Source: the human T2T-CHM13v2.0 reference genome, Homo sapiens. Taken from it: 64,000 nucleotides of DNA. The stretch lies in NCBI RefSeq assembly GCF_009914755.1, contig NC_060936.1, one strand, 5' to 3'. Shown here in pieces: positions 16,001 through 29,500 of this stretch. The notes under the pieces are model-generated. The model searched no databases, was not told the origin of the DNA, and saw only the letters and a list, made by a program, of their open reading frames with translations. The translations under genes were made by a program, and so were the position numbers. Numbering within the stretch: position 1 is the first letter of the stretch; each line of letters opens with the position of its first letter.

Positions 16001-19000
16001 GTCCTTCAGTTCTGCTCTGATTTTAGTTATTTCTTGCCTTCTGCTAGCTTATGAATGTGTTTGCTCTTGCTTTTCTAGTTCTTTTAATTGTGATGTTAGG
16101 GTGTCAGTTTTGGATCTTTCCTGCTTTCTCTTGTGGGCATTTAGTGCTATAAATTGTCCTCTACACACTGCTTTGAATGCGTCCCAGAGATTCTGGCATG
16201 TTGTGTCTTTGTTCTCGTTGGTTTCAAAGAACATCTTTATTTCTGCCTTCATTTCGTTATGTTCCCAGTAGTCATTCAGGAGCAGGTTGTTCAGTTTCCA
16301 TGTAGTTGAGCGGTTTTCAGTGAGTTTCTTAATCCTGAGTTCTAGTTTGATTGCACTGTGGTCTCAGAGATAGTTTGTTATAATTTCTGTTCTTTTACAT
16401 TTGCTGAGGAGAGCTTTACTTCCAATTATGTGGTCAATTTTGGAATAGGTGTGGTGTGGTGCTGAAAAAAATGTATATTCTGTTGATTTGGGGTGGAGAG
16501 TTCTGTAGATGTCTATTAGGTCCACTTGGTGCAGAGCTGAGTTCAATTCTTGGGTATCCTTGTTAACTTTCTGTCTCATTGATCTGTCTAATGTTGACAG
16601 TGGGGTGTTAAAGTCTCCCATTATTATTGTATGGGAGTCTAAGTCTCTTTGTAGGTCACTCAGGACTTGCTTTATGAATCTGGGTGCTCCTGTATTGGGT
16701 GCATATATATTTAGGATAGTTAGCTCTTCTTGTTGAATTGATCCCTTTACCATTATGTAATGGCCTTCTTTGTCTCTTTTGATCTTTGTTGGTTTAAAGT
16801 CTGTTTTATCAGAGACTAGGATTGCAACCCCTGCCTTTGTTTGTTTTCCATTTGCTTGGTAGATCTTCCTCCATCCTTTTATTTTGAGCCTATGTGTGTC
16901 TCTGCATGTGAGATGGGTTTCCTGAATACAACACACTGATGGGTCTTGACTCTTTATCTAATTTGCCAGTCTGTGTCTTTTAATTGGAGCATTTAGTCCA
17001 TTTACATTTAAAGTTAATATTGTTATGTGTGAATTTGAACCTGTCAGTATGATGTTAGCTGGTTTATTTTGCTCGTTAGTTGATGCAGTTTCTTCTTAGT
17101 CTCGATGGTCTTTACATTTTGGCATGATTTTGCAGCGGCTGGTACTATTTGTTCCTTTCCATGTTTAGTGCTTCCTTCAGGAGCTCTTTTAGGGCAGGCC
17201 TGGTGGTGACAAAATCTCTCAGCATTTGCTTGTCTGTAAAGTATTTTATTTCTCCTTCACTTATGAAGCTTAGTTTGGCTGGATATGAAATTCTGGATTG
17301 AAAATTCTTTTCTTTAAGAATGTTGAATATTGGCCCCCACTCTCTTCTGGCTTCTAGAGTTTCTGCCGAGAGATCCACTGTTAGTCTGATGGGCTTCCCT
17401 TTGTGGGTAACCCGACCTTTCTCTCTGGCTGCCCTTAACATTTTTTCCTTCATTTCAACTTTGGTGAATCTGACAATTATGTGTCTTAGAGTTGCTCTTC
17501 TCAAGGAGTATCTTTGTGGCATTCTCTGTATTTCCTGAATCTGAATGTTGGCCTGCCTTGCTAGATTGGGGAAGTTCTCCTGGATAACATCCTGCAGAGT
17601 GTTTTCCAACTTGATTCCATTCTCGCCATCACTTTCAGGTATACCAATCATACGTAGATTTGGTCTTTTCACATAGTCCCGTATTTCTTGGAGGGTTTGT
17701 TCATTTCTTTTTATTCTTTTTTCTCTAAACTTCCCTTCTTGCTTCATTTCATTCATTTCATCTTCCATCGCTGATACCCTTTCTCCCAGTTGATTGCATT
17801 GGCTCCTGATGCTTCTGCATTCTTCACGTAGTTCTCGTGCCTTGGCTTTCAGCTCCATCAGCTCCTTTAAGCACTTCTCTGTATTGGTTATTCTAGTTAT
17901 ACATTCATCTACATTTTTTTCAAAGTTTTCAACTTCTTTGCCTTTGGTTTGAATTTCCTCCTGTAGCTCGGAGTAGTTTGATCGTCCGAAGCCTTCTTCT
18001 CTCAACTCGTGAAAGTCATTCTCTGTCCAGCTTTGTTCTGTTGCTGGTGAGGAAGTGCGATCCTTTGGAGGAGGAGAGGTGCTCTGCTTTTTAGAGTTTC
18101 CAGTTTTCTGCTCTGTTTTTTCCCCATCTTTGTGGTTTTATCTACTTTTGGTCTTTGATGATGGTGATGTACAGATGGGTTTTTGGTGTGGATGTCCTTT
18201 CTGTTTGTTAGTTTTCCTCCTAACAGACAGGACCCTCCGCTGCAGGTCTGTTGGAGTTTGCTAGAGGTCTACTCCAGACCCTGTTAGCCTGGGTACCAGC
18301 AGCGGTGGCTGCAGAACAGTGGATTTTCGTGAACCGCAAATGCTGCTGTCTGATCATTCCTCTGGAAGTTTTGTCTCAGAGGAGTACCCGGCCTTGTGAG
18401 GTGTCAGTCTGCCTCTACTGGGGGGTGCCTCCCAGTTAGGCTGCTCGGCGGTCAGGGGTCAGGGACCCACTTGAGGAGGCAGTCTGCCCGTTCTCAGATC
18501 TCCAGCTGTGTGCTGGGAGAACCACTGCTCTCTTCAAAGCTGTCAGACAGGGACATTTAAGTCTGCAGAGGTTACTGCTGTCTTTTTGTTTGTCTGTGCC
18601 CTGCCCCCAGAGGTGGAGCCTACAGAGGCAGGCAGGCCTCCTTGAGCTGTGGTGGGCTCCACCCAGTTGGAGCTTCCAGGCTGCTTTGTTTACCTAAGCA
18701 AGCCTGGGCAATGGCGGGTGCCCCTCACCCAGCCTCGCTGCCACCTTGCAGTTTGATCTCAGACTGCTGTGCTAGCAATCAGGCAGACTCCGTGGGGGTA
18801 GGACCCCCTGAGCCATGTGCAGGATATAATCTCCTGGTGTGCCGTTTTTTAAGCCCGTCGGAAAAGCGCAGTATTCGGGTGGGAGTGACTGGATTTTCCA
18901 GGTGCCATCTGTCACCCCTTTCTTTGACTAGGAAAGGGAACTCCCTGACCCCTTGTGCTCCCCAAGTGAGGCAATGCCTCGCCCTGCTTCGGCTCTCTCA

Positions 19001-19084
19001 CGGCGCACTGCATGCACTGACCTGCATCCACTGTCTGGCACTCCCTAGTGAGACGAACGGGTACCTTAGATGAAAATGCGGAAA
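13007..19084 (-). mobile_element. L1 #1: near-full-length L1PA3-like element lacking ~75 nt at its 5' end; ORF1 frameshifted, ORF2 broken
   Basis: ORF1/EN/RT/C-terminal fragments in the ORF track; TSD TGGATGCCTTTT at 12995-13006 and 19085-19096; RT motif reads FEDD. Confidence 0.97.
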
Positions 19085-26515: not shown

Positions 26516-29500
26516 GGGGGGAGCCAAGATGGCCGAATAGGAACAGCTCCGGTCTACAGCTCCCAGCATGAGCGATGCAGAAGACGGGTGATTTCTGCAT
26601 TTCCATCTGAGGTACCGGGTTCATCTCACTAGGGAGTGCCAGACAGTGGGTGCAGGACAGTGGGTGCAGCGCACCGTGCGTGAGCCGAAGCAGGGCGAGG
26701 CATTGCCTCACTCGGGAAGTGCAAGGGGTCAGGGAGTTCCCTTTCCTAGTCAAAGAAAGGGGTGACAGATGGCACCTGGAAAATCCAGTCACTCCCACCC
26801 GAATACTGCGCTTTTCCGACGGGCTTAAAAAACGGCACACCAGGAGATTATATCCTGCACATGGCTCAGGGGGTCTTACCCCCACGGAGTCTGCCTGATT
26901 GCTAGCACAGCAGTCTGAGATCAAACTGCAAGGTGGCAGCGAGGCTGGGTGAGGGGCACCCGCCATTGCCCAGGCTTGCTTAGGTAAACAAAGCAGCCTG
27001 GAAGCTCCAACTGGGTGGAGCCCACCACAGCTCAAGGAGGCCTGCCTGCCTCTGTAGGCTCCACCTCTGGGGGCAGGGCACAGACAAACAAAAAGACAGC
27101 AGTAACCTCTGCAGACTTAAATGTCCCTGTCTGACAGCTTTGAAGAGAGCAGTGGTTCTCCCAGCACACAGCTGGAGATCTGAGAACGGGCAGACTGCCT
27201 CCTCAAGTGGGTCCCTGACCCCTGACCGCCGAGCAGCCTAACTGGGAGGCACCCCCCAGTAGAGGCAGACTGACACCTCACAAGGCCGGGTACTCCTCTG
27301 AGACAAAACTTCCAGAGGAATGATCAGACAGCAGCATTTGCGGTTCACGAAAATTCACTGTTCTGCAGCCACCGCTGCTGGTACCCAGGCTAACAGGGTC
27401 TGGAGTAGACCTCTAGCAAACTCCAACAGACCTGCAGCGGAGGGTCCTGTCTGTTAGGAGGAAAACTAACAAACAGAAAGGACATGCACACCAAAAACCC
27501 ATCTGTACATCACCATCATCAAAGACCAAAAGTAGATAAAACCACAAAGATGGGGAAAAAACAGAGCAGAAAAACTGGAAACTCTAAAAAGCAGAGCACC
27601 TCTCCTCCTCCAAAGGAACGCAGTTCCTCACCAGCAACAGAACAAAGCTGGACAGAGAATGACTTTCACGAGTTGAGAGAAGAAGGCTTCGGACGATCAA
27701 ACTACTCCGAGCTACAGGAGGAAATTCAAACCAAAGGCAAAGAAGTTGAAAACTATGAAAAAAATGTAGACGAATGTATAACTAGAATAACGAATATAGA
27801 GAAGTGCTTAAAGGAGCTGATGGAGCTGAAAGCCAAGGCTCGAAAACTACGTGAAGAATGCAGAAGCCTCAGGAGCCGATGCGATCAACTAGAAGAAAGG
27901 GTATCAGTGATGGAAGATGAAATGAATGAAATGAAGTGAGAAGGGAAGTTTAGAGAAAAAAGAATAAAAAGAAATGAACAAAGCCTCCAAGAAATATGGG
28001 ACTATGTGAAAAGACCAAATCTACGTATGATTGGTATACCTGAAAGTGATGGGGAGAATGAAACCAAGTTGGAAAACACTGTGCAGGATATTATCCAGGA
28101 GAACTTCCCCAATCCAGCAAGGCAGGTCAACATTCACATTCAGGAAATACAGAGAACGCTACAAAGATACTCCTCGAGAAGAGCAACTCCAAGACACATA
28201 ATTGTCAGATTCACCAAAGTTGAAATGAAGGAAAAAATGTTAAGGGCAGCCAGAGAGAAAGGTCGGGTTACCCACAAAGGGAAGCCTATTAGACTAACAG
28301 CGGATCTCTCAGTAGAAACTCTAGAAGCCAGAAGAGAGTGGGGGCCAATATTCAACATTCTTAAAGAAAAGAATTTTCAACCCAGAATTTCATATCCAGC
28401 CAAACTAAGCTTCATAAGTGAAGGAGAAATAAAAACCATTATAGACAAACAAATGCTGAGAGATTTTGTCACCACCAGGCCTGCCCTAAAAGAGCTCCTG
28501 AAGGAAGCACTAAACATGGAAAAGAACAACCGGTACCAGCCACTGAAAAATCATGCCAAATTGTAAAGACCATCAAGGCTAGGAAGAAACTGCATCAACT
28601 AACGAGCAAAATAAACCAGCTAACATCATAATGACAGGATCAAATTCACACATAACAATATTGACTTTAAATGTAAATGGACTAAATGCTCCAATTAAAA
28701 GACACAGACTGGCAAATTGGATAAAGAGTCAAGACCCATCAGTGTGCTGTATTCAGGAAACCCATCTCACATGCAGAGACACACATAGGCTCAAAATAAA
28801 AGGATGGAGGAAGATCTACCAAGCAAATGGAAAACAAACAAAGGCAGGGGTTGCAATCCTAGTCTCTGATAAAACAGACTTTAAACCAACAAAGATCAAA
28901 AGAGACAAAGAAGGCCATTACATAATGGTAAAGGGATCAATTCAACAAGAAGAGCTAACTATCCTAAATATATATGCACCCAATACAGGAGCACCCAGAT
29001 TCATAAAGCAAGTCCTGAGTGACCTACAAAGAGACTTAGACTCCCATACAATAATAATGGGAGACTTTAACACCCCACTGTCAACATTAGACAGAAAGTT
29101 AACAAGGATACCCAGGAATTGAACTCAGCTTTGCACCAAGCGGACCTAATAGACATCTACGGAATTCTCCACCCCAAATCAACAGAATATACATTTTTTC
29201 AGCACCACACCACACCTATTCCAAAATTGACCACATAGTTGGAAGTAAAGCTCTCCTCAGCAAATGTAAAAGAACAGAAATTATAACAAACTGTCTCTGA
29301 GACCACAGTGCAATCAAACTAGAACTCAGGATTAAGAAACTCACTGAAAACCGCTCAACTACATGGAAACTGAACAACGGCTCCCGAATGACTACTGGGT
29401 ACCTAACAAAATGAAGGCAGAAATAAAGATGTTCTTTGAAACCAACGAGAACAAAGACACAACATACCAGTATCACTGGGACGCATTCAAAGCAGTGTGT

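What the first reader, a model, noticed from the sequence alone, without database searches (positions are those of the whole stretch)
17890..27790. Near-identical ~1-kb tract in head-to-head L1 #1 and #2 flanking exons 4-6: inversion substrate
Seen: 18955->~18130 (minus) versus 26722->~27550 (plus) differ at only about three positions by eye and share unusual alleles (aatcCAgtcact, ggagtctGCctg, ctgaccGccgag, gcagcGgaggg, gttagGagg). The outermost ~130 nt of the same elements are far more diverged, a sharp tract boundary. Only ~7.4 kb separates the elements and it holds exons 4-6 (520 nt, not a multiple of 3). Inference: a recent conversion tract or crossover. NAHR would invert exons 4-6 and give a copy-neutral null allele invisible to exome or array testing; the layout also invites assembly orientation errors.
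Basis: partly seen in the sequence, partly recalled or inferred. Interest (0 to 1): 0.7.

Follow-up and report, generated by a model that had tools for sequence, protein, structure and literature searches.

The report
Gene-converting L1 pair inside PTPRQ
Two facing LINE-1 copies inside the deafness gene PTPRQ share near-identical patches, likely from repeated gene conversion; the spot is already catalogued as a candidate inversion that was not found in 54 long-read genomes, the gene was internally flipped in an older reference build, and a rare real flip would likely knock the gene out.

Summary
Two independently inserted, head-to-head L1 elements (own target-site duplications intact, 7,430 nt apart, exons 4-6 between) differ at 3 substitutions and one 1-nt indel over 896 nt; 252 control pairs never had fewer than 16 differences in such a window. 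The tract is one of several: two more identical runs (357 and 341 nt) and short clusters of shared rare alleles make a patchwork concentrated in the inner 3.7 kb. Best reading: recurrent non-allelic gene conversion without net inversion. The inversion idea is already in print: the locus is candidate HsInv0024, uninverted in all 54 long-read genomes tested; GRCh37 carried an internal PTPRQ inversion, and GRCh38 keeps two misoriented pieces whose ends fall at or near these tracts. Two polymorphic L1-flanked inversions checked here show the same homogenisation, about three times longer. An inversion would frameshift PTPRQ (stop at codon 140), and 0 of 107 haplotypes does not exclude a rare null allele. 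Known class, known locus; I did not find the tract anatomy in print.

The parts
13007..19084 (-). L1#1, about 6.08 kb primate L1 lacking the first ~75 nt; 3' end resembles the younger lineage in the panel (L1PA3-like label recalled, not from a call)
19085..19096 (-). 5' copy of the 12-nt target-site duplication of L1#1
   Evidence: identical to 12995-13006
12995..13006 (-). 3' copy of the 12-nt target-site duplication of L1#1
26516..32662 (+). L1#2, full-length primate L1 (L1PA4-like 3' end, label recalled)
26502..26515 (+). 5' copy of the 14-nt target-site duplication of L1#2
32663..32676 (+). 3' copy of the target-site duplication of L1#2 (13 of 14 match)
18061..18955 (-). Tract T1, arm in L1#1 (5' UTR and start of ORF1)
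26722..27617 (+). Tract T1, arm in L1#2; 3 substitutions, 1 indel, 15 shared rare alleles; probably continues to about 27770
16590..16930 (-). Tract T2, arm in L1#1, 341 identical nt
28748..29088 (+). Tract T2, arm in L1#2; only 2 shared rare alleles, in a slowly diverging part, so weaker than T1 and T3
15800..16156 (-). Tract T3, arm in L1#1, 357 identical nt
29507..29863 (+). Tract T3, arm in L1#2; 5 shared rare alleles; holds one end (29681) of a GRCh38 misoriented piece
27624..30295 (+). Zone of short or older tracts in L1#2 coordinates: 27624-27754, 27998-28052, 29913-30001, 30179-30295, each with 2-4 shared rare alleles
18956..19084 (-). Unconverted outer 129 nt of L1#1 with 12 private changes; best other genomic matches 88-90%
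19085..26515 (.). 7.43-kb spacer that a crossover between the L1s would invert (candidate inversion HsInv0024)
22214..22283 (+). PTPRQ exon 4 (70 nt)
   Evidence: hub annotation; AG/GT ends
23923..24122 (+). PTPRQ exon 5 (200 nt)
   Evidence: hub annotation
25292..25541 (+). PTPRQ exon 6 (250 nt)
   Evidence: hub annotation
42165..48180 (+). L1#3, used as in-window control: no long identical run with either element (194 and 137 nt)

Best explanation
Two separately inserted L1 elements face each other across PTPRQ exons 4-6 and share a patchwork of near-identical stretches, likely left by repeated gene conversion between them, while the exons keep their normal orientation. Shown: separate insertions, the tracts, the shared rare alleles, their clustering and their bias to the inner ends. 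Inferred: a break in one copy is repaired on the other after the chromatid folds back or pairs with its sister; non-crossover repair copies 50-900 nt and is harmless, so it can fix; crossover repair would invert the 7.4-kb spacer and make a recessive null allele, so it would stay rare. Each conversion lengthens the perfect match and likely raises the next chance. T1 is inferred to be young (3 substitutions in 895 nt, about 7% of the usual between-copy distance, 95% range 1.5-21%; roughly 1 million years if the subfamilies are 12-18 million years old, ages recalled). Net flow is tentatively L1#2 to L1#1. The same tracts are inferred to be where reference builds mis-joined.
For: Own target-site duplications at both ends of each element. 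Tract statistics against 252 control pairs. The pair shares 41 alleles carried by at most 1 of 21 other copies, against mean 2.0, maximum 8 in 209 control pairs; 22 lie in T1-T3 and 19 outside, where they sit in longer identical runs than expected (p 0.0008) and cluster (12 runs against 16.8 expected, p 0.001). 36 of 41 lie in the inner 3.7 of 6.1 kb (p 0.0002). Outside tracts the two are ordinary copies (3.8-5.0% apart) with private changes on both (42 and 41 in the outer 2.6 kb). At 14 strict lineage-marking sites, 9 differ with L1#1 carrying the younger-lineage base, and of the 5 that are identical 4 carry the L1#2-type base. Two L1-flanked polymorphic inversions show the same homogenisation: 3,769 and 3,280 nt in runs of 300 or more, against 1,183 here. 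Uninverted in 107 of 107 haplotypes; truncating variants in exons 3, 5 and 6 are reported in patients.
Against: One haplotype only; no ape orthologue and no population sequence could be fetched, so date and direction are inferred. The lineage group used for direction was picked by eye after seeing L1#1's pattern, and all three T1 substitutions are private to L1#2, which fits either direction. A tree of the outer 2.4 kb also joins the two elements (support 0.845), so some shared ancestry or old conversion is mixed in. Six rare alleles are shared by all three window L1s, which a two-copy model does not explain. Shorter tracts, not selection, may be why the locus is monomorphic. Conversion cannot be told from a double crossover with short heteroduplex by sequence alone.
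Confidence: 0.8

Rival explanations
1. Inversion toggling: the spacer inverted and re-inverted through crossovers, each leaving a conversion tract, so the tracts mark old breakpoints.
For: The two polymorphic comparators carry long homogenised tracts; most NAHR inversions recur (PMC6748972 passages); GRCh38 shows a swapped-segment pattern between T1 and about T3.
Against: The intermediate would be a null allele of a recessive deafness gene; L1#1 keeps the younger-lineage base at all 9 strict sites where the copies differ, on both sides of the tracts, so no swapped block is seen in CHM13; all 82 haplotypes in the Strand-seq study support CHM13.
Confidence: 0.08
2. Shared source element: both copies came from the same or a recombinant master L1, so the shared alleles are inherited, not converted.
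For: The two join in a tree of the outer 2.4 kb; six rare alleles are shared with L1#3 too.
Against: Common descent cannot give 0.3% difference in one part and 4-5% in the next, since both parts would age equally; the copies carry different lineage marks at 9 sites; shared alleles cluster in identical runs.
Confidence: 0.04
3. Assembly artefact: CHM13 polishing collapsed the two copies in places.
For: This locus has been mis-assembled in GRCh37, GRCh38 and CHM1_1.1; 28 of 383 and 38 of 376 Strand-seq reads still map against CHM13's orientation here, more than the 0.8-1.6% at the four other chr12 misorientations.
Against: The tracts hold scattered differences and 55-130-nt sub-tracts, unlike a collapse; the GRCh38 pieces end at or near the same tracts although that build comes from other DNA; identical arms would by themselves cause the mis-mapped reads.
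Confidence: 0.05

Closest known systems
HsInv0024 (candidate inversion; Moreira-Pinhal et al. 2026, PMC13629690)
   Same: This very locus: hg38 chr12:80448376-80454445 and 80461877-80468017, 7,431 bp, LINE repeats of 6,070 and 6,141 bp.
   Different: Listed as not polymorphic, O1/O1 in all 54 samples; the rows seen say nothing of conversion tracts or PTPRQ.
Reference errors at PTPRQ (ACMG bulletin PMC12310396; Schneider 2017 PMC5411779; Porubsky 2023 PMC10150506)
   Same: GRCh37 internal inversion, split RefSeq alignment in GRCh37, and two GRCh38 misoriented pieces mapping to window 26704-29681 and 16407-19085.
   Different: None of the passages read links the errors to identity tracts; here one end maps to the start of T1 and the others in or 250 nt from T3 (inferred from lifted coordinates, I did not see GRCh37 or GRCh38 sequence).
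L1-flanked polymorphic inversions HsInv0055 (chr5) and the chr13 inversion taken to be HsInv0341 (matched by place and size, not by a table row)
   Same: Head-to-head full-length L1 pairs with long homogenised tracts and diverged ends; 87 shared rare alleles in the chr5 pair.
   Different: They are polymorphic, HsInv0341 recurrent and without genes; their identical runs reach 1,730 and 1,226 nt against 478 here, and the PTPRQ spacer holds essential exons.
F8 intron 1 and intron 22 inversions (recalled, not read here)
   Same: Intragenic inverted repeats, conversion between copies, copy-neutral null allele by intrachromatid crossover.
   Different: Those are proven, frequent disease alleles on the X chromosome with about 99.9% identical repeats; none is shown for PTPRQ.

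Membership tests
Non-allelic gene conversion between repeats | Locally bounded excess identity between two paralogues | tested here: met
Non-allelic gene conversion between repeats | Shared derived alleles absent from other family members, clustered in the tracts | tested here: met
Non-allelic gene conversion between repeats | Flanks not exchanged | tested here: met
   own target-site duplications
Non-allelic gene conversion between repeats | One-way transfer shown against an outgroup orthologue | tested here: inconclusive
   4 of 5 informative identical sites point L1#2 to L1#1, group chosen post hoc; no ape genome available
NAHR inversion mediated by inverted repeats | Inverted repeats over 90% identical flanking a unique segment | tested here: met
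   96.2% over 6,085 nt; criterion from PMC6748972
NAHR inversion mediated by inverted repeats | Both orientations observed in people | not testable with these tools
   Published result is negative: 0 of 107 haplotypes, 82 of 82 support CHM13
NAHR inversion mediated by inverted repeats | Recurrence on several haplotypes or in apes | not testable with these tools
   no population or ape sequence
Pathogenic intragenic inversion (F8 type) | Inversion would disrupt the reading frame | tested here: met
   exon 3-to-7 join stops at codon 140; assumes the inverted exons are skipped
Pathogenic intragenic inversion (F8 type) | Found in patients | not testable with these tools
   none seen in searches or in passages of PMC11956499 and PMC11050587
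Segmental duplication or twin-primed single insertion | Shared flanks or a single target-site duplication round both arms | tested here: not met
   two different duplications, homology ends at the L1 ends

The most novel reading that the evidence does not exclude
The converted L1 pair keeps producing an exon 4-6 inversion that is a hidden, recurrent DFNB84A null allele, missed by exomes, arrays and most short reads; the GRCh37 arrangement was such a real molecule, crossed over at tract T3. With an assumed ordinary loss-of-function rate of 1e-5 and an inversion rate of 1e-6, it would be about 9% of null alleles at about 0.03-0.06% frequency, and 107 haplotypes would miss it 94-97% of the time. 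Two earlier 'reference errors' did turn out to be rare inversions (PMC13629690).
Probability: 0.2. Interest if true: 0.6.

Novelty: new member of a known kind. Interest (0 to 1): 0.32.

Why it matters
For genome builders and clinical laboratories the tracts explain why this part of a deafness gene was mis-joined in successive references and why reads cross-map between introns 3 and 6. For hearing-loss genetics, a rare inversion is cheap to test in patients with one PTPRQ hit and is not excluded by existing screens (upper 95% bound 2.8%, looser because trios are included). For repeat biology it is a tidy case of two old L1s exchanging sequence where crossover outcomes would be selected against, useful as a contrast to polymorphic pairs. 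None of this is a new mechanism.

Tried and rejected
Single recent event: rejected, several tracts. Duplication or one twin-primed insertion: rejected by separate target-site duplications. L1#1's outer 129 nt as a relic of another subfamily: no close match, best 88-90% among 40 scored of 1,045 candidates, so treated as private change. Recent conversion with L1#3: longest runs 194 and 137 nt, within the control range. A fixed ~130-nt unconverted inner edge as a rule: seen in this pair and the chr5 pair but not the chr13 pair (700-900 nt), 2 of 3. A recalled 13-mer recombination motif: no exact match in any tract, one-mismatch hits shared with L1#3, uninformative. Folding the Alu-bearing part of the spacer gave a long stem without a shuffle control, not used. 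The 1,019-genome study: no row for this place, but its main table was cut when stored, so inconclusive. A full-text search for HsInv0024 found no paper; searches for conversion between neighbouring L1s listed no paper on this pair. Three papers that may describe the GRCh37 error in detail were not held. The control panel is the top 20 of 38 non-self hits plus L1#3; two panel copies are partial and were left out of the 209-pair count.
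Full report
1. Observation. A self-comparison of the window shows L1#1 (minus) and L1#2 (plus) aligned over 6,085 nt at 96.2%, and a third element, L1#3, at about 95% to both. A three-way alignment lists every difference. From 18955/26722 to 18061/27617 there are three substitutions and one 1-nt indel, with an unbroken run of 478 nt; the outer 129 nt differ at 17 sites. Two further identical runs lie deeper in the elements: T2 (341 nt; 16930-16590/28748-29088) and T3 (357 nt; 16156-15800/29507-29863).

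2. Is it more than chance? I fetched the top 20 of the 38 non-self hits as whole elements (two are partial) and aligned them with the three window copies. Because they were picked for likeness to T1 the control is conservative there. Among 252 other pairs the mean divergence was 4.4%, the longest run 268 nt, the third-longest at most 178, and the fewest differences in an 890-column window 16; the pair scores 478, 341 and 4. Random placement of its 210 mismatches never gave these values in 20,000 trials. The pair shares 41 alleles found in at most one of 21 other copies, against a mean of 2.0 and a maximum of 8 in 209 full-length control pairs. Nineteen lie outside T1-T3; they fall in longer identical runs than expected (p 0.0008) and cluster (p 0.001), marking short or older tracts such as 27624-27754, 27998-28052, 29913-30001 and 30179-30295. 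Thirty-six of 41 lie in the inner 3.7 kb (p 0.0002).

3. Anatomy. Each element has its own target-site duplication: 12 nt at 19085-19096 and 12995-13006 for L1#1, 14 nt (one mismatch) at 26502-26515 and 32663-32676 for L1#2. L1#1 lacks its first 75 nt or so and sits inside an older L1 whose two halves continue across it. So these are two insertions, and the CHM13 arrangement has no net inversion: a single crossover would have exchanged the inner duplication copies. Both carry a segment of about 125 nt that L1#3 lacks. None of the three has an intact long reading frame (longest stop-free stretches 498, 405 and 604 codons). At 14 strict lineage-marking sites, 9 differ between the copies, always with L1#1 on the side of a group of five panel copies; of 5 identical sites, 4 carry the L1#2-type base. 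This hints at net flow from L1#2 to L1#1, but the group was chosen by eye with L1#1's pattern in view, and the three T1 substitutions are all private to L1#2. T1's 3 substitutions in 895 nt are about 7% (1.5-21%) of the usual distance between copies there; with recalled subfamily ages of 12-18 million years this is about one million years, which is an inference without ape data.

4. Consequence for the gene. Exons 4-6 total 520 nt; joining exon 3 to exon 7 gives a stop at codon 140 after nine new residues. This assumes the inverted exons are simply skipped. Truncating variants in exons 3, 5 and 6 are listed as pathogenic or likely pathogenic in a Japanese cohort (PMC11050587, passages and Table 2), so these exons matter. 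Whole-genome sequencing has already found PTPRQ alleles missed by exomes, none of them this inversion in the passages read (PMC11956499).

5. What is in print. [quoted passage not shown] The RefSeq transcript was split in GRCh37 and in CHM1_1.1, not in GRCh38 (PMC5411779, supplement rows only). Porubsky et al. 2023 (PMC10150506, passages and supplement rows) list two GRCh38 misorientations that map to window 26704-29681 and 16407-19085, with all 82 haplotypes supporting CHM13, and none of the 8 chr12 rows of their inversion table is here. In my alignment 26704 pairs with 18973 (the start of T1), 29681 lies in T3, and 16407 pairs with 29257, 250 nt before T3. I infer that the old inversion had its junctions at or near T3 and that the repair rejoined at T1, leaving the middle of the two L1s swapped; I did not see either build's sequence. 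Moreira-Pinhal et al. 2026 (PMC13629690; abstract, first eighth of the text, passages, part 1 of Table S1 and one row of Table S3) list this pair as HsInv0024 and found O1/O1 in 53 diploids and CHM13. The 1,019-genome tables gave no row but were cut when stored (PMC12350158). Searches listed no paper on conversion between these two elements or on an inverted allele in patients; subscription papers and bioRxiv supplements were out of reach, and three likely sources were not held.

6. Comparators. I fetched two L1-flanked polymorphic inversions: chr5 (coordinates equal to HsInv0055) and chr13 (taken as HsInv0341 by place and size). Both are head-to-head pairs with long homogenised cores: 3,769 and 3,280 nt in runs of 300 or more, longest 1,730 and 1,226, against 1,183 and 478 at PTPRQ. 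So the mosaic is a property of this class, and PTPRQ is a mild case. Two comparators chosen for being polymorphic do not show how common it is among all neighbouring inverted pairs; in the window, the inverted pair L1#1/L1#3 (23 kb apart) and the direct pair L1#2/L1#3 show no long tract. Most such inversions recur (PMC6748972 and PMC3961182, passages), at 3.4e-6 to 1.4e-4 per generation for the recurrent ones (bioRxiv 10.1101/2021.12.20.472354, passages).

7. Mechanism and rivals. Most likely (0.8): recurrent non-crossover repair between the two copies, helped by their closeness, with crossover products kept rare by recessive selection or by the shorter perfect matches; these two reasons cannot be separated here. 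Toggling, shared source and assembly collapse are each given less than 0.1 for the reasons listed. Unexplained: 12 private changes in the outer 129 nt of L1#1 and six rare alleles common to all three window L1s with only short runs round them.

8. Verdict. The feature is real, the class and the locus are known, and the direct test for a common inversion has been done and is negative. What remains open is a rare null allele: 0 of 107 bounds it only below 2.8%, while a rough mutation-selection estimate with assumed rates puts it at 0.003-0.4%. Interest 0.32; 0.6 if a hidden deafness allele is found.

Noticed in passing
window 18956-19084: The unconverted 5' end of L1#1 carries 12 private changes in 129 nt, mostly not simple CpG decay, against a panel mean of 3 and maximum of 7; cause unknown (error-prone 5' junction at insertion or mutagenic repair at the tract edge are guesses).
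   Followed up: partly
window 26950, 29299, 29662, 30000, 30246, 31240 (L1#2 coordinates): Six rare alleles are shared by all three L1s of the window and by at most one of 20 other copies; old three-way conversion or a shared source lineage.
   Followed up: partly
window 19382-19518 and 19939-20062; 19534-19827 and 20232-20538: Inside the spacer, a 137-nt AT-rich inverted repeat (75%) interleaves with an inverted Alu pair (77%).
   Followed up: partly
window 47842-48569: The 3' end of L1#3 is followed by an inverted copy of an L1 3' end (331 nt, 83-85% to the window elements), making a local palindrome-like stretch.
   Followed up: no
window 11260-13006 and 19082-19371: An older L1 (about 73% to the young copies) was split by the insertion of L1#1 in the same orientation.
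   Followed up: partly
L051:231-6236 with L052:153-6146: The chr5 pair (HsInv0055) is almost identical over about 4.7 kb yet about 15% apart over the 3' 1.2 kb, suggesting elements of different ages homogenised by conversion; its inner 130 nt are also unconverted.
   Followed up: partly
window 16407-19085 and 26704-29681: 7-10% of pooled Strand-seq reads map against CHM13's orientation in these pieces (PMC10150506 Table S4), more than at the other four chr12 misorientations; cross-mapping in the tracts or tract polymorphism.
   Followed up: no
window 39838-40121: An 82-nt direct repeat (78%) about 200 nt apart, seen in the self-comparison.
   Followed up: no
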